A stretch of 64,000 nucleotides of DNA from a virus. Under the pieces are notes generated by a model, which made no database searches, was not told the origin of the DNA, and was given only the letters and a program-made list of their open reading frames with translations. The stretch's first letter is position 1. Every line of letters begins with the position of its first letter. Positions 18,859 to 29,617 of this stretch are shown in pieces. The position numbers and the translations under genes are program-made. The stretch lies in IMG/VR virus record IMGVR_UViG_3300025570_000007. The stretch is one strand, 5' to 3'.

Positions 18859-19521
18859 CTAACTATGGTGATCATGAGTGTGTTGAAGTAACCCTTTAAC
18901 TTCTCTACCCTCTATTAACTTTAAAACTTCTTTTAGTGAGTATGGTCTAAATTCCGGATGTCCATCTACTCCTACATCTAACATCCTACCTGGCCCTACT
19001 CTGTCTGAAGTGGGTGTATGTATGTGTCCGTGTAAATGCATTACTCTTTTAGCCATACCGTTCCAAGATGCGAAAGGATAGTGACATAGTACAAATCTGT
19101 ATTGACTTGCTTTTGACTGCCTACCGTCTATTGCTTCGTTTGGAACTTTTAATGATAAGAATTGATAATTTTTTACTGTTTCAAAAATTCTATGTTGTTT
19201 ATCAAAAGCTAGATTGGTAACATCGTAATCATGGTTACCTTCAAGTAAGTGAATATTCTTACAATGTACTCTTCTTCTAAACTCTAAAACTTTCTCTTCT
19301 CCTCCAAAGGACCAATCTCCCATGTGTATTAGGACGTCATCTTCCCCTACTGTTGCATTTATGTTATCAACAAGAGTAGTGTTCATATGATCTAATGATT
19401 TGAATTTACGAACTTTTTTCTCTACAGACCATTCAGTAGTTGCACTACATATATTCTTATGGCTATAATGCGTGTCTGAAGTGAAGTATATTGTCTGTTT
19501 TCTGTCTAATGTAATCTTCAT
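18859..19521 (-). CDS. Calcineurin-like metallophosphoesterase
   Basis: SDTH, GD, GNHD, HYP, HGHIH, DVGVD. Confidence 0.88.
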   Translation of the reverse strand: MKITLDRKQTIYFTSDTHYSHKNICSATTEWSVEKKVRKFKSLDHMNTTLVDNINATVGEDDVLIHMGDWSFGGEEKVLEFRRRVHCKNIHLLEGNHDYDVTNLAFDKQHRIFETVKNYQFLSLKVPNEAIDGRQSKASQYRFVLCHYPFASWNGMAKRVMHLHGHIHTPTSDRVGPGRMLDVGVDGHPEFRPYSLKEVLKLIEGREVKGLLQHTHDHHS

Positions 19522-20743: not shown

Positions 20744-22288
20744 TTAAATTTCTATAGCTTCAATTGCTTTGATTACAGCTCTTGGATCTATTTCAACTCT
20801 TTTTACTAGCTCATACATTTCTGATGAGTATCCAGCTAACTGGTAAAGTTTTTGAGTTGTTGGCTTAAACATTGTAGTTGAATATCCACAGATGTTTATT
20901 GAATATACGTGCATCTTGTTATAGTTGCTTGGTGAAATGTACGAAGCTCCTTGCATATCCGAGATAATAAAGATTCTGTCGTACTTATTCCCAATCGTAC
21001 TAAAAATACCATTAAACTCAGTTCCATACCCTACAGTTCCCTGTAATTTTCTAAACTGATTTTTAATAGTATTTATACTATCTAAAGGATTGAACTTAAT
21101 TGCAGCGACACTACTAGCGAAGTGGTATACATCGGCGTTAATCCCTTTACCTAAAGTTGCAGCTACTAAAGCAGCTTTTTCAATAGCAGATTTACTACCA
21201 GGTTTCCCATTTGCTAATCTGATCGATGATCCCATTGATCCTGAACTATCAAAGATAACTGCAGTTTTACCTGCTGGAAATAGTGATGTTAGGTTCGGAA
21301 TCGCAAGTTCGTAAGCTTTATCTAGTGCTGTAATGAATGGTAACGCTTTTGACGCTCCTATATCCTGTAGTAACACTTCTAATGCTAAATCGATTTGGTG
21401 AGGGAATACTAGAGATTTTCTAATAGTTGCTTCATCTGTTAAGATAGCAATTGCTCCGTCAATCAATTCTTTATTTGAACTAGTTTGTAAGATATTACGT
21501 AAGTTACGTAGTAACGCTAAATACCCTATTTTTTTAGTTGCAATTAATTCAGCATAATTTGATTCCTTAGCTTGTGTTAACTCTACCTTAGCTTCCGCTT
21601 TAGTAATAGTACCTTCTTTTACTTTCTTAGCAACATCTTGTCCAGCTGATGTATTCTTATCTTCAACAGTGTTGAATTGCTTTAACTCTCCAGTCATTAA
21701 CTGTTTGAAAGTTTTTTGCATATCTTCACTTGGTTTTGGACGAACTAAGTTTACAATATCAACTAAGGAAACATCTTTATTCTTTCCTTGGTATTTTGCT
21801 AACTCGTAAGTATCAGCAGCCTCTAAAGCAGCTTTAAATCCTTTCTTCATTGCGTTTGGCAATGGTTTTCCGGGATTGAAGTGTTGATAACAAGCTACTA
21901 TTTCTAGTAAGTCATCTAACCTAAACACGATACCTCCTGTTTTAAATTTCTTACTTCTCTTTGAGAAGAATTTACGTGCAATTCCTCTACCTGATAGGTA
22001 AGGTGCTAATGCTACTGCTCCAAACTGGGTAACACTTCTTTGGCCCATTACAGATCTAGCATATACTAGTGCTTTAGCTACGAATTCAGGTTCTTTTTGA
22101 GCTAACTTTACGATAAGCTCTTTGAATCTAACTTCTCTGTCTGATAATTTCTCGTAATAAGTATTATCAAAACCTGTTGCTAAAATAGCAACTAATTCAT
22201 GTTTTGGATCTAATTTGTAACCTTCACCTCCTTGGTGGTTTGTTACTGTAGGTGTTGCAGTCTTTTTGTTTTTGTTGTAAACTGACAT
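20744..22288 (-). CDS. rsr: Ro60/TROVE-domain RNA-binding protein with vWA domain
   Basis: TNHQGGEGY, YQ/YELAKY-type segment, GYLALLRNLRNI, DSSGSM MIDAS, SDMQ; 514 aa. Confidence 0.9.
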   Translation of the reverse strand: MSVYNKNKKTATPTVTNHQGGEGYKLDPKHELVAILATGFDNTYYEKLSDREVRFKELIVKLAQKEPEFVAKALVYARSVMGQRSVTQFGAVALAPYLSGRGIARKFFSKRSKKFKTGGIVFRLDDLLEIVACYQHFNPGKPLPNAMKKGFKAALEAADTYELAKYQGKNKDVSLVDIVNLVRPKPSEDMQKTFKQLMTGELKQFNTVEDKNTSAGQDVAKKVKEGTITKAEAKVELTQAKESNYAELIATKKIGYLALLRNLRNILQTSSNKELIDGAIAILTDEATIRKSLVFPHQIDLALEVLLQDIGASKALPFITALDKAYELAIPNLTSLFPAGKTAVIFDSSGSMGSSIRLANGKPGSKSAIEKAALVAATLGKGINADVYHFASSVAAIKFNPLDSINTIKNQFRKLQGTVGYGTEFNGIFSTIGNKYDRIFIISDMQGASYISPSNYNKMHVYSINICGYSTTMFKPTTQKLYQLAGYSSEMYELVKRVEIDPRAVIKAIEAIEI

Positions 22289-22366: not shown

Positions 22367-22372
22367 GTGTTG

Positions 22373-22441
22373 TAAGTAGAGAATGTTAAGAAGAGCGTTT
22401 GTTTCTGAATGCGAAGTAACTCTGTCTATGACTACTACTTA
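22373..22441 (-). ncRNA. Y RNA-like element A (minimal)
   Basis: TAAGTAGTAGTCATAGACAGAGTTACTTCG...GCTCTTCTTAACATTCTCTACTTA; the termini pair. Confidence 0.65.
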
Positions 22442-22446
22442 TACTG

Positions 22447-22527
22447 TTCAAGGGAATGGGTGCAGTGGGATATTGTTAATTAGATTTGAAGTCTGAGTCG
22501 AAGTAACCCGGTTGCTAACCACTTGAA
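22447..22527 (-). ncRNA. Y RNA-like element B (helix plus anticodon-arm-like hairpin)
   Basis: TTCAAGTGGT...GGGTTACTTCG-ACTCAGACTTCAAATCTAA...CCCATTCCCTTGAA. Confidence 0.65.
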
Positions 22528-22534
22528 TATGTTG

Positions 22535-22690
22535 TTATAAGGGAATGGGTGATGACAGCTAGTTTTAACGCGCCTTTACCAATTTGGCCACCTCCCAAGA
22601 TTTCTTACTTTCTTAGTTGGGAGGGAAGGACTCGAACCTCCAAATACGTGCTCTAAATGCGATGTAACTGTATTATCTTACCACTTATAA
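22535..22690 (-). ncRNA. YrlA-like Y RNA C (permuted tRNA module)
   Basis: Shared helix encloses T arm GGAGG-TTCGAGT-CCTTC, then a loop-closed acceptor CCTCCCA/TGGGAGG, then D arm TGGCCAAATTGGTAAAGGC. Confidence 0.8.
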
Positions 22691-22703
22691 TATGTTTAAA
22701 AAT

Positions 22704-22840
22704 AAAGAAGGGAACGGCTAACAGAGTGTATATCGTGCTCTACCAACTGAGCTACTGAAGGGATATATTCCCCCAGGCTGGATTCGAACCAGCGACCACG
22801 TCGTTACAAGCGAAGTAATTCTTATTATTACCACTTTTTA
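22704..22840 (-). ncRNA. YrlA-like Y RNA D (permuted tRNA module)
   Basis: T arm GCTGG-TTCGAAT-CCAGC, closed acceptor CTGGGGG/CCTTCAG, D arm GCTCAGTTGGTAGAGC inside the shared helix. Confidence 0.8.
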
Positions 22841-23158: not shown

Positions 23159-23229
23159 AAGCGGTCGTGGGACTCGAACCCAACCGTAGGGTTATGAGCC
23201 CTGCATGCTACCAGTTACAACACCCCGCG
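23159..23229 (-). tRNA. tRNA-fMet(CAT), imperfect acceptor
   Basis: 5' CGCGGGG, GGG/CCC anticodon stem, loop CTCATAA. Confidence 0.75.
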
Positions 23230-24480: not shown

Positions 24481-24563
24481 ATCTCTTATTATCCAATATG
24501 TCAATGATCTCACTACTATTATACCATAAATATACGAAGTTCTACTTTACCTACAAACTTTTT

Positions 24564-24948: not shown

Positions 24949-25500
24949 TTAGAAAAGTAAATAAGGTTTCCACTCTTCCGGAATGTATGTTGTCTTCTTT
25001 AGTAACATTAAATAGTGTGGACGTTGTGGTTTTGGTATATTTTTTGTATACTCTTCTACCATTAGATCCGCTTTTTCCCCATTACATTTCTTACAAGCTG
25101 TTACTAGATTATCCCATGCGTTTGGTCCTCCTTTTGATTGAGGAATAACGTGATCTAACGTAAGTAACTTTTTTGTAGTCTGTCCACAATATACACACTC
25201 GAAATTATCTCTTTTATAGATATTCTCTCTTGTTAGTGGTACCTTTTGAAAGTTAAGTTTCACATAAGTGAATACTCTAATAATTGATGGTTTATTAATC
25301 TCTAAATTTGGATTAACAACACCGAATGTCTCTGGGTATTCTGCTATAATGTCTGCATTACCTTTAAAAGAGATTACGAAAGCTCTTTCAGTAGTGATAA
25401 TGCTTCTAGGAATATAGCTAGAATCGACTACCAGAGTTTTACTGTAGCGATTTTTCATAATTTCTACTTTTTGGGTTAATGAAACATTTTCTTTTTCCAT
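24949..25500 (-). CDS. HNH endonuclease (McrA-like)
   Basis: RDNFECVYCG, TLDHVIPQSKGG, NLVTACKKCN. Confidence 0.9.
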   Translation of the reverse strand: MEKENVSLTQKVEIMKNRYSKTLVVDSSYIPRSIITTERAFVISFKGNADIIAEYPETFGVVNPNLEINKPSIIRVFTYVKLNFQKVPLTRENIYKRDNFECVYCGQTTKKLLTLDHVIPQSKGGPNAWDNLVTACKKCNGEKADLMVEEYTKNIPKPQRPHYLMLLKKTTYIPEEWKPYLLF

Positions 25501-27001: not shown

Positions 27002-27230
27002 TACCTAGTTTTCGTACTAGGTAAACGTGAATCCGTGCTCCCTTAGAAACACCTAAATTCAACAGCTGCTAGGCTGCTAATGCAAAGTTGTCGTTTGCGT
27101 AAATACTAATCTACTATCATCCACGTTTTCCATTGTCAAAACCAGTCGGCCCCATGGTCTTAAAAGTCTCATAGTGGAGCCGGAGAGTATCGAACTCTCG
27201 TCCAACGAAATGTCAATAATTATCAACGAT
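27002..27230 (-). ncRNA. ssrA: Circularly permuted (two-piece) tmRNA
   Basis: 3' piece GGACGAGAGTTCGATACTCTCCGGCTCCA (27175-27203) precedes the 5' end GGGGCCGACTGGTTTTGAC (starts 27153); tag ANDNFALAA* at 27069-27098; G3:U70; outer ends approximate. Confidence 0.88.
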
Positions 27231-27594: not shown

Positions 27595-27606
27595 ATGTTG
27601 CTCTCC

Positions 27607-27933
27607 TTAATACTCTTTATATATTGCTAAATTATTTTCTACTAACCAATCACTAACGTTAACTCCTTCTATATACACTTCAGCTAAGTACCTTCCGTAC
27701 TTACCTTTCTTATCTTTTCGGGTCTTAATAGTAACTTCCTTACCTAGTACTAATTCTCTTAACCTATCTCTTGAAAATTTACCTGCTTCTTTTTCTTCTC
27801 CTCTAACTTCAGGAGCATCAATTCGTAGAATTCTTAACGGTTCTGTAAATGTCATGTTAAATCCTAAATCGATTTGTGCTGTTACAGTATCACCATCGTA
27901 AACTTTAATAATTTTTGCTTTGTAAGTATACAT
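27607..27933 (-). CDS. Thermonuclease (SNase-like)
   Basis: KVYDGDT, LRIDAPE, GKYGRYLA. Confidence 0.9.
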   Translation of the reverse strand: MYTYKAKIIKVYDGDTVTAQIDLGFNMTFTEPLRILRIDAPEVRGEEKEAGKFSRDRLRELVLGKEVTIKTRKDKKGKYGRYLAEVYIEGVNVSDWLVENNLAIYKEY

Positions 27934-27956
27934 TATATTGTTTATTATAAATATTG

Positions 27957-28362: not shown

Positions 28363-28486
28363 TGGTGGGGAAGGTTGGATTTGAACCAACAATGTCAAAT
28401 TTCAAGTTTGATTGTTTACCGAAGTAACTCAATTGTATTACTACCATTTCTGAAGAAAGTCTACGCGAGTTGTTTATTTCTTCCCC
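28363..28486 (-). ncRNA. tRNA/Y RNA hybrid F: tRNA body (anticodon TGA, encoded CCA) with the D arm replaced by the permuted shared helix
   Basis: GGGGAAG/CTTCCCC-A-CCA, T arm GTTGG-TTCAAAT-CCAAC, anticodon arm TCAAA-CTTGAAA-TTTGA; insert GACTTTCTTCAGAAATGGTAGT...GAGTTACTTCG. Confidence 0.75.
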
Positions 28487-28758: not shown

Positions 28759-28829
28759 TGCCGCCAGTAGGAATCGAACCTACCCAGTAGAGTTTTACAG
28801 ACTCGCTCGGCACCTTGCCTGTTGTCGGC
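28759..28829 (-). tRNA. Atypical tRNA-Tyr(GTA)
   Basis: Loop CTGTAAA; short D loop; no long variable arm. Confidence 0.65.
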
Positions 28830-28835
28830 TTTAAA

Positions 28836-28972
28836 AAAATTAAGAGAAAGTTTAGAAGAGCTGTTTTGGTTGCAGATACGGGATTTGAACCCGTCACCTA
28901 TTGATTTGAAGTCAATTGCTCTACCATGTGAGCTAATTTGCGAAGTAACTCTTTCCATTACTACTTAATTTT
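28836..28972 (-). ncRNA. Y RNA-like element G enclosing a complete tRNA with UCA anticodon (tRNA 28867-28942)
   Basis: AAGTAGTAATGGAAAGAGTTACTTCG-[tRNA, loop CTTCAAA, ACCA]-GCTCTTCTAAACTTTCTCTTAA. Confidence 0.8.
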
Positions 28973-29457: not shown

Positions 29458-29549
29458 CGGAAGATGGCGGATTCGAACCCCCACATCTGTTACAATACTC
29501 GCTTTTCAAGAGCGCCGCCGCTACCCAGAATCTTTCGGCTTAATCTTCC
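29458..29549 (-). tRNA. tRNA-Ser(TGA), enlarged D loop
   Basis: Loop CTTGAAA, long variable arm, G73. Confidence 0.8.
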
Positions 29550-29594: not shown

Positions 29595-29617
29595 ATTATC
29601 CAATATGTCAATGATCT
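29595..29617 (-). repeat. 23-nt direct repeat (second copy 24488-24510), boxA-like
   Basis: AGATCATTGACATATTGGATAAT is identical at the heads of two tRNA sub-arrays. Confidence 0.7.

What the first reader, a model, noticed from the sequence alone, without database searches (positions are those of the whole stretch)
28836..28972. Intact UCA-anticodon (opal-reading) tRNA caged inside the Ro-type helix
Seen: a full cloverleaf in normal order (loop CTTCAAA, encoded ACCA, weak acceptor with C1:A72 and A5:C68 mismatches). Its 5' leader and 3' trailer form the shared helix, and the conserved TTACTTCG overlaps tRNA positions 1-2. Only this RNA and hybrid F encode CCA; the 25 ordinary tRNAs do not. 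It is not tRNA-Sec-like (short variable arm). Inference: Ro60 may gate maturation of a UGA suppressor, or the RNA acts unprocessed as a Y RNA with the helix on the acceptor end.
Basis: partly seen in the sequence, partly recalled or inferred. Interest (0 to 1): 0.8.

Follow-up and report, generated by a model that had tools for sequence, protein, structure and literature searches.

The report
Whole tRNA mounted on Ro60 handle
This phage encodes a complete tRNA-shaped RNA with a stop-codon-reading anticodon, held inside the stem that probably docks the phage's Ro60 protein; at least fifty such RNAs exist in uncultured phages with many different anticodons, so it is more likely a tRNA mimic than a working stop-codon suppressor.

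Summary
Window 28942-28867 (-) is a full, normal-order cloverleaf: Rfam tRNA 60.5 bits, anticodon UCA, encoded ACCA, C1:A72 and A5:C68 mismatches. Its leader and trailer form a bulged helix.

- **Helix:** it is the handle shared by seven RNAs around the phage's Ro60 (TROVE) gene. It covaries strongly across 22 homologues and 98 handles.
- **Family:** the RNA belongs to at least 51 distinct normal-order tRNAs mounted on this handle, in 39 phage loci. 29 of 38 other loci hold a TROVE gene within a few kb.
- **Anticodon:** it is not conserved. There are 17 different anticodons. The nearest relative carries UCU, and the only other UCA copy arose separately.
- **Genetic code:** the phage uses TGA as an ordinary stop (20 of 137 genes). 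No reading frame is split by TGA.
- **Acceptor stem:** the 1:72 mismatch runs through the family, and the acceptor stem here is thermodynamically marginal.

Best reading (0.5): a Y-RNA-type Ro60 partner whose effector module is a whole tRNA, working intact or nicked rather than as a decoder. A released opal suppressor stays possible (0.2).

I found no description of this design. This scan noted the same design before, with a UUA anticodon, on another genome. I class it as a new variant of a known kind.

The parts
28964..28972 (-). 5' strand of the outer stem of the handle (AAAAUUAAG)
   Evidence: Pairs with 28836-28844 in the minimum-energy fold. The homologous columns covary (helix 2: 93% paired, 5 of 6 pairs changed on both sides).
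28963..28963 (-). Bulged U of the handle
   Evidence: Unpaired in the fold. It is the invariant T between two purines in all handles. The purines on either side covary with their partners: A:U 59 / G:C 34 and G:C 62 / A:U 30 across 98 handles.
28961..28962 (-). Two-pair step (AG) after the bulge
   Evidence: Pairs with CU at 28845-28846. Covaries AG:CU against GG:CC.
28958..28960 (-). 5' side of the asymmetric internal loop (UAA)
   Evidence: Unpaired in the fold. TAA or TGA in 65 of 98 handles.
28947..28957 (-). 5' strand of the inner stem (UGGAA-A-GAGUU, one bulged A)
   Evidence: Pairs with 28853-28862. The inner four pairs of the homologous stem covary in all 22 aligned homologues (helix 3).
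28941..28948 (-). Invariant TTACTTCG motif; its last two bases are tRNA positions 1-2
   Evidence: Exact matches head five of the handle RNAs in the window (28941, 28420, 22811, 22499, 22412). One-mismatch forms head two more, at 22660 and 20651. Invariant in alignment A1.
28867..28942 (-). Complete normal-order tRNA cloverleaf, 76 nt
   Evidence: ARAGORN. Rfam RF00005 60.5 bits, model 1-71 of 71. D, anticodon and T stems pair in 98-100% of cells across homologues.
28907..28909 (-). Anticodon UCA in a canonical 7-nt loop (C32 U33 ... A37 A38)
   Evidence: Positions 34-36 take 9, 11 and 13 parsimony steps across the family against a mean of 5.4. U33 takes 2.
28867..28870 (-). Encoded A73-CCA, lying in the internal loop between the acceptor stem and the handle
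   Evidence: Also encoded in 9-11 of 59 family members, and in none of the window's ordinary tRNAs.
28863..28866 (-). 3' linker AAAC
   Evidence: Unpaired in the fold.
28853..28862 (-). 3' strand of the inner stem (AGCUCUUCUA)
28847..28852 (-). 3' side of the asymmetric internal loop (6 nt)
   Evidence: It is 5-7 nt long in 88 of 98 handles.
28836..28846 (-). 3' strand of the two-pair step and the outer stem (CU-CUUAAUUUU)
28833..28839 (-). Run of seven T overlapping the end of the helix; possible transcript end
   Evidence: Read. The terminator scan did not call it because the stem has too few G-C pairs, so this is an inference.
20744..22288 (-). Ro60 (TROVE) gene, 514 aa, same strand, 6.5 kb downstream of the RNA
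   Evidence: Pfam TROVE E 1.1e-14. Own-genome search. Aligns end to end with Thermus phage phiLo Ro60, PDB 9KOP/9L5Y, E 2.5e-15.
22368..22840 (-). Four further handle RNAs just upstream of the Ro60 gene: two with permuted (YrlA-type) tRNA-like cargo and two with short hairpins
   Evidence: Read. Sub-threshold Rfam YrlA hit at 22800-22734, 36.3 bits. TTACTTCG / TTACATCG positions.
28363..28486 (-). Hybrid handle RNA, the only other RNA here that encodes CCA
   Evidence: Read (GGGGAAG ... CTTCCCC-A-CCA). Weak Rfam tRNA hit 28431-28374. Covered by an earlier follow-up, e1-5684590.

Best explanation
The RNA is a Y-RNA-type partner of the phage's Ro60 protein, and its effector module is a whole tRNA in normal order.

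**Proposed mechanism**
1. It is transcribed with the tRNA array. Its first base follows the 3' end of tRNA-Val directly, so its 5' end is probably set by processing of that tRNA. Its 3' end probably lies at the run of seven U after the helix.
2. Leader and trailer close into the family's handle: a 9-bp stem, a bulged U, 2 bp, an asymmetric loop, a 10-bp stem, then the invariant UUACUUCG. I infer that this handle docks the Ro60 ring.
3. The tRNA body folds into the usual L shape and is presented to a factor that binds tRNA. This parallels the tRNA-like domain of YrlA and Yrn1, which links Ro60 to a partner such as PNPase.
4. RNase P may nick it between U-1 and C1, as happens to M. smegmatis YrlA. 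The two pieces would stay joined through the roughly 20 handle pairs.
5. UCA is one state of a fast-changing anticodon. It is not read into protein to any useful extent.

**Shown here:** the cloverleaf, the helix and its covariation, the family, its co-occurrence with TROVE genes, the variability of the anticodon, and the standard genetic code of the phage.

**Inferred:** Ro60 binding, the RNA ends, the partner factor, and the lack of decoding.
For: - **Shared handle:** the same handle heads seven RNAs around the Ro60 gene with different cargos. It recurs several times per phage beside TROVE genes in all 15 loci found through the Ro60 protein.
- **Covariation:** 86.7% of cells paired against 61.5% in shuffles, and 32 of 37 pairs changed on both sides. 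The pairs flanking the bulged U switch between A:U and G:C across 98 handles.
- **Link to Ro60:** 51 distinct normal-order embedded tRNAs were found by DNA pattern alone. 29 of 38 other loci hold a TROVE homologue in the few kb held.
- **Anticodon:** 17 different anticodons. The nearest relative has UCU.
- **Acceptor end:** C1.A72 is unpaired in 16 of 19 aligned homologues, while all 22 ordinary tRNAs here have a standard 1:72 pair. By established knowledge, a 1:72 mismatch marks bacterial initiator tRNA and counteracts EF-Tu binding.
- **Weak acceptor stem:** cloverleaf plus handle is -24.1 kcal/mol against a minimum of -27.9, and acceptor pair probabilities are at most 0.1.
- **No need for UGA decoding:**
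- **Precedents:** Yrn1 is modelled with D, anticodon-like and T arms, in the opposite orientation to YrlA. M. smegmatis YrlA is cut by RNase P, gains CCA, and is still recovered with Rsr (PMC4201824). A phage Ro60 binds phage Y-like RNAs and host PNPase (PMC12135203).
Against: - No binding data exist. Ro60 docking rests on neighbourhood and on the likeness to a bulged Y-RNA helix.
- The motif that defines bacterial Y RNAs (GNCGAAN0-1G) is absent, and Rfam's YrlA model does not hit this RNA.
- The RNA lies 6.5 kb from the Ro60 gene, further than the 4 kb typical of YrlA.
- The anticodon loop keeps full tRNA form across the family: always 7 nt, U33 nearly invariant, a purine at 37 in most. Near-identical copies differ only at the anticodon: L031 GAU, L060 UCU, L052 UUU. 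This suggests the anticodon is used for something.
- N73-CCA is encoded in 9-11 of 59 members, far above chance, which hints at a tRNA-like 3' end.
- 7 of 16 embedded anticodons have no ordinary tRNA counterpart in the same locus.
Confidence: 0.5

Rival explanations
1. It is the precursor of a working opal suppressor tRNA. RNase P and a 3' nuclease release a 76-nt tRNA ending in its encoded CCA. A host synthetase charges it and it reads UGA. Ro60 bound to the leader/trailer helix delays or gates this release.
For: - Full cloverleaf with a canonical anticodon loop, and U at -1, which suits RNase P.
- Encoded ACCA, which no ordinary tRNA here has.
- Both UCA copies fall among the 9-11 CCA-encoding members and none among the 48 without CCA. 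By hand, the chance that both fall there is about 0.01-0.03, and the test is post hoc.
- This scan noted a UUA copy with ACCA in another genome (e1-5378517, not checked).
- TGA suppressor tRNAs do occur in standard-code phages (10.1101/2021.08.26.457843).
- M. smegmatis YrlA is processed by RNase P and gains CCA (PMC4201824).
Against: - TGA is a normal stop in 20 of 137 genes, many in ATGA overlaps. No frame is split by TGA into two parts of 80 aa or more.
- The anticodon is not conserved in the nearest relatives.
- The C1.A72 and A5.C68 mismatches give a marginal acceptor stem. By established knowledge, a 1:72 mismatch disfavours EF-Tu.
- It does not derive from the phage's tRNA-Trp: 68% identity, no closer than to the other tRNAs.
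- The held 104 kb has no CCA-adding enzyme or other code-change genes.
Confidence: 0.2
2. It is an anticodon-display RNP. The RNA stays on Ro60, and its anticodon loop is the specificity element. The loop would be a decoy or bait for a host factor that reads anticodon loops, such as an anticodon nuclease or a modification enzyme. Or it would pair with a codon or a complementary anticodon. The anticodon changes quickly because the target changes.
For: - The loop architecture is conserved (7 nt, U33 at 2 steps) while positions 34-36 are among the fastest columns, at 9, 11 and 13 steps.
- Near-identical copies differ only at the anticodon: L031/L060/L052, and L133 against ten UUU copies.
- The commonest anticodons are UUU, GUA, UUG and CUU. 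From my own knowledge, not tested here, these are typical targets of anticodon nucleases.
Against: - Purely inferential; no target is identified.
- No RNA-repair genes (RtcB, RNA ligase) in the held 104 kb.
- A UCA decoy has no obvious natural tRNA to imitate.
- Covarying stem positions change as fast as the anticodon, so simple lack of constraint explains much of the pattern.
Confidence: 0.15
3. The handle is bound by a phage or host protein other than Ro60. The link to TROVE genes would then only reflect shared placement in the tRNA/RNA region of these phages.
For: - The canonical GNCGAA Ro60 motif is absent.
- No binding data exist.
- The target lies 6.5 kb from the Ro60 gene.
Against: - TROVE is present in 29 of 38 loci found by RNA pattern alone. 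The handle is present in 15 of 15 loci found by TROVE alone.
- The geometry matches Y RNAs: ends paired, a single-base bulge, an asymmetric loop, and a conserved 5' strand.
Confidence: 0.08
4. It is a decaying tRNA gene, and its flanks pair by chance.
For: Two acceptor mismatches and a stop-reading anticodon, as seen in pseudo-tRNAs.
Against: - The helix and all four arms covary across 22 homologues.
- The Rfam score lies within the range of working tRNAs.
- At least 51 family members exist.
Confidence: 0.02

Closest known systems
YrlA (Y RNA-like A; Rfam RF02553; S. Typhimurium and more than 250 bacteria and 22 phages; PMC4201824; structure 10.1101/312249)
   Same: - Encoded on the same strand as a Ro60 gene.
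- The 5' and 3' ends pair into a stem thought to dock Ro60.
- The effector module is a tRNA mimic with true D and T arms.
- Two permuted YrlA-type copies sit in this same window, and one gives a sub-threshold RF02553 hit.
   Different: - YrlA is circularly permuted. Its acceptor stem is closed by a loop, it has no anticodon loop and no free CCA, and the handle leaves from the anticodon-stem position.
- Here the tRNA is in normal order with a full anticodon arm, and the handle leaves from the acceptor end.
- The GNCGAAN0-1G motif is replaced by RRURGU...UUACUUCG.
- The Rfam model does not hit this RNA.
Deinococcus radiodurans Yrn1 (PMC4201824)
   Same: According to that paper, Yrn1 is modelled with D-like, anticodon-like and T arms in the opposite orientation to YrlA. 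The stem-loop between its D and T arms takes the anticodon-arm place, which leaves the Ro60-binding helix at the other end.
   Different: - Yrn1's D arm is doubtful, its 'anticodon loop' has 6 nt, and it has no variable region.
- The RNA here is a complete tRNA by every sequence test, and it belongs to a family with interchangeable anticodons.
Mycobacterium smegmatis YrlA (PMC4201824)
   Same: It has a 7-bp acceptor stem, is cut by RNase P in vitro, and is cut and given CCA in vivo while still recovered with Rsr. This shows that a Y RNA can be treated as a tRNA precursor.
   Different: - There the cut opens a closed acceptor loop of a permuted mimic.
- Here a cut would separate the handle's 5' strand from the tRNA.
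- Here CCA is already encoded.
Phage suppressor tRNAs in stop-codon-recoded phages (10.1101/2021.08.26.457843; PMC9523058)
   Same: A UCA-anticodon tRNA gene in the tRNA region of a phage of Bacteroidota-type hosts. Standard-code relatives sometimes carry TGA suppressors.
   Different: - Those phages have in-frame TGA or TAG codons in late genes, and TGA stops are depleted.
- This phage has neither.
- The tRNA here is flanked by a conserved protein-handle helix and has a 1:72 mismatch.
Thermus phage phiLo Ro60 with Yrl1/Yrl2 (PMC12135203; PDB 9KOP, 9L5Y)
   Same: - A phage Ro60 with phage-encoded partner RNAs upstream on the same strand.
- The protein here aligns end to end with it.
   Different: Yrl1 and Yrl2 are stem-bulge-stem RNAs picked out by a CGAA motif. 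No tRNA cargo is reported for them.

Membership tests
Working elongator / suppressor tRNA | Cloverleaf with conserved tertiary-interaction bases | tested here: met
   Rfam RF00005 60.5 bits over the whole model. U8, A14, G18 G19 and the T-loop TTCAAAT are present.
Working elongator / suppressor tRNA | Seven-pair acceptor stem with a paired 1:72 | tested here: not met
   C1.A72 and A5.C68 mismatches. Acceptor pair probabilities are at most 0.1. All 22 ordinary tRNAs here have a standard 1:72 pair.
Working elongator / suppressor tRNA | Its codon is needed as sense in the genome | tested here: not met
   TGA ends 20 of 137 genes. Reading through TGA adds only 618 aa to the coding-strand frames. 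No frame is split into two parts of 80 aa or more. The record is only 63% complete.
Working elongator / suppressor tRNA | Anticodon conserved in homologues | tested here: not met
   17 different anticodons in 51 members. The sister RNA L058 has UCU.
Working elongator / suppressor tRNA | Released with free ends and aminoacylated | not testable with these tools
   Needs end mapping and acid-gel analysis.
tRNA-Sec | Long variable arm, extended acceptor and D stems, match to RF01852 | tested here: not met
   5-nt variable loop, 7/5 geometry, 4-bp D stem. No RF01852 hit on this RNA at E up to 5.
YrlA (RF02553) | Match to the Rfam covariance model | tested here: not met
   No hit on 28836-28972 at E up to 5. 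A neighbouring permuted copy scores 36.3 bits against the 69-bit threshold.
YrlA (RF02553) | GNCGAAN0-1G motif near the 5' end | tested here: not met
   Absent from the leader. The conserved 5' elements are RRURGU and UUACUUCG.
YrlA (RF02553) | Permuted tRNA-like domain with a closed acceptor loop and no anticodon loop | tested here: not met
   Normal order, open acceptor end, full anticodon arm.
YrlA (RF02553) | Encoded near Ro60 (within about 4 kb) on the same strand | tested here: inconclusive
   Same strand, but 6.5 kb upstream. Five sister handle RNAs lie within 600 nt of the gene, four upstream and one just downstream.
Y RNA in the broad sense (Ro60-bound RNA) | The 5' and 3' ends form a bulged helix with a conserved 5' strand | tested here: met
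Y RNA in the broad sense (Ro60-bound RNA) | Co-occurs with a Ro60 gene | tested here: met
   15 of 15 TROVE-found loci carry the handle. 29 of 38 RNA-found loci carry TROVE.
Y RNA in the broad sense (Ro60-bound RNA) | Bound by Ro60 | not testable with these tools
   Needs gel shift, pull-down or crosslinking.

The most novel reading that the evidence does not exclude
These phages use the Ro60 handle as a chassis for a whole tRNA whose anticodon is a swappable address. The anticodon loop would direct the Ro60 particle, and any nuclease it recruits, to a matching target: a codon in the ribosomal A site, a complementary tRNA anticodon, or a host anticodon-directed defence enzyme. The UCA copy would address UGA stop codons or whatever recognises them. 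That would give Y-RNA tRNA mimicry a defined, programmable specificity.
Probability: 0.15. Interest if true: 0.85.

Novelty: new variant of a known kind. Interest (0 to 1): 0.6.

Why it matters
What the tRNA-like domains of bacterial Y RNAs bind, and why they imitate tRNA, is still unknown. Known examples lack an anticodon loop and a free CCA end.

Here the cargo is a complete tRNA with an interchangeable anticodon. It sits on a handle that also carries permuted and hairpin cargos in the same phage. This supplies natural variants for direct tests:
- Does Ro60 bind the handle?
- Is the tRNA released or kept?
- Does the anticodon matter?

It also warns annotators. tRNA finders call these RNAs ordinary or suppressor tRNAs (here 'tRNA-SeC'), which can wrongly suggest stop-codon recoding in a standard-code phage.

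Tried and rejected
- **TGA recoding (code 4):** rejected. Reading through TGA barely lengthens coding-strand frames, TGA ends 20 genes, and no frame is split.
- **tRNA-Sec:** rejected on geometry and on Rfam.
- **Recent derivation from the phage's tRNA-Trp or another array tRNA:** no close paralogue. The best is Phe at 74% and Trp is 68%.
- **True orthologues:**
  - The closest Ro60 in IMG/VR is 76% identical (L003). It has tRNA-Tyr, not this RNA, after tRNA-Val.
  - The metagenome scan gave nothing closer.
  - A body-specific pattern found only ordinary Thr, Asn and Lys tRNAs plus L058 and L303.
  - Conservation of UCA could therefore be judged only at family level.
- **Public phage records:** the megablast search found no match.
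- **Bacterial genomes:** 120 stretches matched a handle pattern. None had the 3' partner geometry or a TROVE gene, so they look like chance.
- **crAss001:** the first 50 kb, with its tRNA array, has no TTACTTCG handle.
- **RNA-repair and CCA-adding genes:** none in the held 104 kb.
- **RNAduplex pairing of leader and downstream sequence:** it often picked wrong partners. I replaced it with an explicit two-stem finder, which still mis-registers this RNA because of its bulged A.
- **Sampling limits:** Counts are lower bounds, and anticodon frequencies are not unbiased.

Full report
**Setting**

The window is bases 32001-96000 of a 104,202-bp IMG/VR virus record (linear, estimated 63% complete). 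All long reading frames lie on the minus strand and G+C is about 36%. A large structural protein has its only database relatives, at 38% identity, in Flavobacterium phages.

Between 29336 and 22968 (-) lies an array of 23 tRNA genes by ARAGORN (25 Rfam hits at gathering score). Directly downstream is a 514-aa TROVE/Ro60 gene at 22288-20744 (-). Pfam gives E 1.1e-14. The protein aligns end to end with the solved Ro60 of Thermus phage phiLo, E 2.5e-15.

**The observation**

- ARAGORN calls 28942-28867 (-) a 76-nt 'tRNA-SeC' with anticodon tca.
- Rfam's general tRNA model scores it 60.5 bits over the whole model, within the range of its neighbours. It marks two non-standard acceptor pairs, C1.A72 and A5.C68.
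- The loop is CUUCAAA, and the 3' end is A73-CCA.
- None of the 22 ordinary tRNAs has CCA. By reading, neither do the three weaker tRNA-like hits.
- TTACTTCG at 28948-28941 overlaps tRNA positions 1-2.
- Folding 28972-28836 pairs leader with trailer: 9 bp, a bulged U, 2 bp, an asymmetric loop, then a 10-bp stem with one bulged A.
- It is not tRNA-Sec-like.

**The helix is real and shared**

The 5' signature (two purines, U, purine, G, U ... an 8-bp variable stem ... TTACTTCG) heads seven RNAs in this window. Four sit just upstream of the Ro60 gene, one just downstream, and two inside the array.

It recurs several times per phage in all 15 IMG/VR loci retrieved with the Ro60 protein alone. Across 98 handles in 53 loci, the pairs on either side of the bulged U switch together: A:U 59 / G:C 34, and G:C 62 / A:U 30.

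I aligned 22 RNAs of the same design as the target and gave a hand-written structure of handle plus cloverleaf. The result:
- 86.7% of cells form standard pairs, against 61.5% in shuffles (0 of 500 shuffles reach it) and 41-52% when partners are slid.
- 32 of 37 pairs show changes on both sides.
- D, anticodon and T stems are 98-100% paired.
- The 1:72 position is unpaired in 16 of 19 RNAs.

**A family of whole tRNAs on the handle**

Handle cargos come in several kinds: permuted tRNA-like domains of the YrlA type, short hairpins, T-arm hybrids, and complete tRNAs in normal order.

Pattern scans of IMG/VR gave 51 distinct normal-order examples in 39 loci, rising to 59 after a further scan. Most of these loci were found without reference to any protein. 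Even so, 29 of the 38 other than the window hold a TROVE homologue within the few kb held, and most of the nine without one are short fragments of 1-5 kb.

A sample of bacterial genomes gave only chance-like matches. Rfam has no family for the handle.

**The anticodon**

- The 51 members carry 17 different anticodons: UUU 12, GUA 9, UUG 7, then GAU, CUU, UUC, UCA, GCA, UCU, UGG and others.
- On a tree built without the loop, the target's sister is L058 (UCU). The only other UCA copy (L027) groups with CAG and UUG copies, so UCA arose twice.
- Positions 34, 35 and 36 take 9, 11 and 13 parsimony steps against a column mean of 5.4, while U33 takes 2. The loop is always 7 nt.
- Some near-identical RNAs differ only at the anticodon: L031 GAU, L060 UCU, L052 UUU.
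- L010 GCU and L013 GUG differ mainly there, along with a compensating change in the anticodon stem.

So the arm and loop shape are kept while the triplet is free or even driven to change.

**Does the phage need UGA decoding?**

No.
- On the coding strand, TAA ends 89 genes, TAG 28 and TGA 20, many of the last in ATGA overlaps.
- Reading through TGA adds 618 aa to 28,368.
- No frame is split by TGA into two parts of 80 aa or more.
- The RNA is not a recent copy of the phage's tRNA-Trp.
- No CCA-adding enzyme, RtcB or RNA ligase is found in the held DNA.

**Would it work as a tRNA?**

Evidence against:
- The acceptor stem is weak. The cloverleaf-plus-handle structure is 3.8 kcal/mol above the minimum-energy fold, and acceptor pair probabilities are at most 0.1.
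- The 1:72 mismatch runs through the family. By established knowledge, C1.A72 is the mark of bacterial initiator tRNA and counteracts EF-Tu binding. That argues against an elongator role.

Evidence the other way:
- N73-CCA is encoded in 9-11 of 59 members, against about 1 in 64 by chance and 0 of 25 ordinary tRNAs here.
- Both UCA copies are among the CCA-encoding members. By hand, the chance that both fall there is about 0.01-0.03, and the test is post hoc.
- U at -1 suits RNase P.

From my own knowledge, CCA also blocks RNase Z. The encoded CCA could therefore either mark a mature 3' end or protect the RNA from being cut out. I cannot tell which.

A check of redundancy was also mixed. 9 of 16 embedded anticodons duplicate an ordinary tRNA in the same locus and 7 do not.

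**Comparison with what is known**

- YrlA RNAs are permuted tRNA mimics with a closed acceptor loop, no anticodon loop and no free CCA (10.1101/312249). They are recognised by a GNCGAAN0-1G motif and lie within 4 kb of Ro60 (PMC4201824).
- D. radiodurans Yrn1 is modelled in the opposite orientation with an anticodon-like arm of 6 loop bases. M. smegmatis YrlA is cut by RNase P and gains CCA while still bound to Rsr (PMC4201824).
- A phage Ro60 binds phage Y-like RNAs and host PNPase (PMC12135203).
- TGA suppressor tRNAs occur in recoded phages and now and then in standard-code relatives (10.1101/2021.08.26.457843).

I found no paper that describes complete, normal-order tRNAs mounted on a Ro60-type handle.

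This scan had already noted the modular handle system in this genome (e1-5684589, e1-5684602, e1-5684590). It had also noted a non-permuted cargo with a UUA anticodon, a C1:A72 mismatch and ACCA in another genome (e1-5378517, e1-5378543). I did not check the notes on the other genome.

**Verdict**

| Reading | Confidence |
|---|---|
| Y-RNA-type Ro60 partner with a whole tRNA as effector module, acting intact or nicked; UCA is one state of a variable anticodon | 0.5 |
| Released, working opal suppressor | 0.2 |
| Anticodon loop is a displayed specificity element | 0.15 |
| Handle bound by a protein other than Ro60 | 0.08 |
| Decaying tRNA gene with chance flank pairing | 0.02 |

It is a new variant of a known kind, and its interest is moderate to high (0.6). 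It offers natural variants for testing what Y-RNA tRNA mimicry is for. It also shows that a 'suppressor tRNA' call in a phage need not mean recoding.

Noticed in passing
window 27069-27227 (-): Rfam 'permuted tmRNA' (RF04321) hit at 64.3 bits, above its 47-bit threshold, inside the tRNA array. This is a possible phage-encoded two-piece tmRNA.
   Followed up: no
window 28759-28829 (-): Just downstream of the target lies a degenerate tRNA with anticodon GUA (Tyr) and a short variable region. It scores 28.1 bits, just under Rfam's 29. ARAGORN misses it, and the array otherwise has no tRNA-Tyr. The closest relative L003 has an 82-nt tRNA-Tyr at this place.
   Followed up: partly
window 29459-29549 (-): A tRNA-like RNA with acceptor GGAAGAT/ATCTTCC, loop CTTGAAA (anticodon UGA, Ser) and a long variable arm. 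It gives only a weak tRNA-Sec hit (22.8 bits) and ARAGORN misses it. It is probably a tRNA-Ser.
   Followed up: no
window 23160-23228 (-): Weak tRNA hit (27.7 bits) starting CGCGGGG, with a CAU anticodon and three G:C pairs closing the anticodon stem. It looks like an initiator tRNA.
   Followed up: no
window 29595-29614 and 24488-24507 (-): An identical 20-mer (TCATTGACATATTGGATAAT) precedes two segments of the tRNA array; 0.01 matches are expected by chance. It is a probable promoter or control element.
   Followed up: partly
L031:7330-7449(-), L060:1777-1896(-), L052:58-178(-): Three handle-mounted tRNAs from different contigs are nearly identical. L031 and L060 differ within the RNA only in the anticodon triplet (GAU, UCU), and L052 (UUU) has a few further changes. 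L133 (UUC) likewise differs by one base from ten UUU copies.
   Followed up: partly
L041, L099, L076, L004, L128, L013, L152 (rows starting TAGCTCA/TAGTGCA): In a second subtype the D arm follows TTACTTCG directly. The 5' acceptor strand seems to be supplied by UUCG of the motif, and an extra small hairpin follows the T arm.
   Followed up: no
window 28867-28942 (-): The acceptor end (C1.A72, G2:C71, C3:G70, then GCAACCA) matches, from my own knowledge, the end of E. coli initiator tRNA that the formyltransferase recognises. Only this family member has C3:G70, so it may be coincidence.
   Followed up: no
window 27605-27934 (-) and 24949-25500 (-): Small genes are interspersed in the tRNA array. 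One is an HNH endonuclease (Pfam). The other reads like a staphylococcal-nuclease-type protein by eye; I did not search it.
   Followed up: no
window 18859-19521 (-): A calcineurin-like metallophosphoesterase lies two genes downstream of Ro60. It could be an RNA-end phosphatase. I did not examine it.
   Followed up: no
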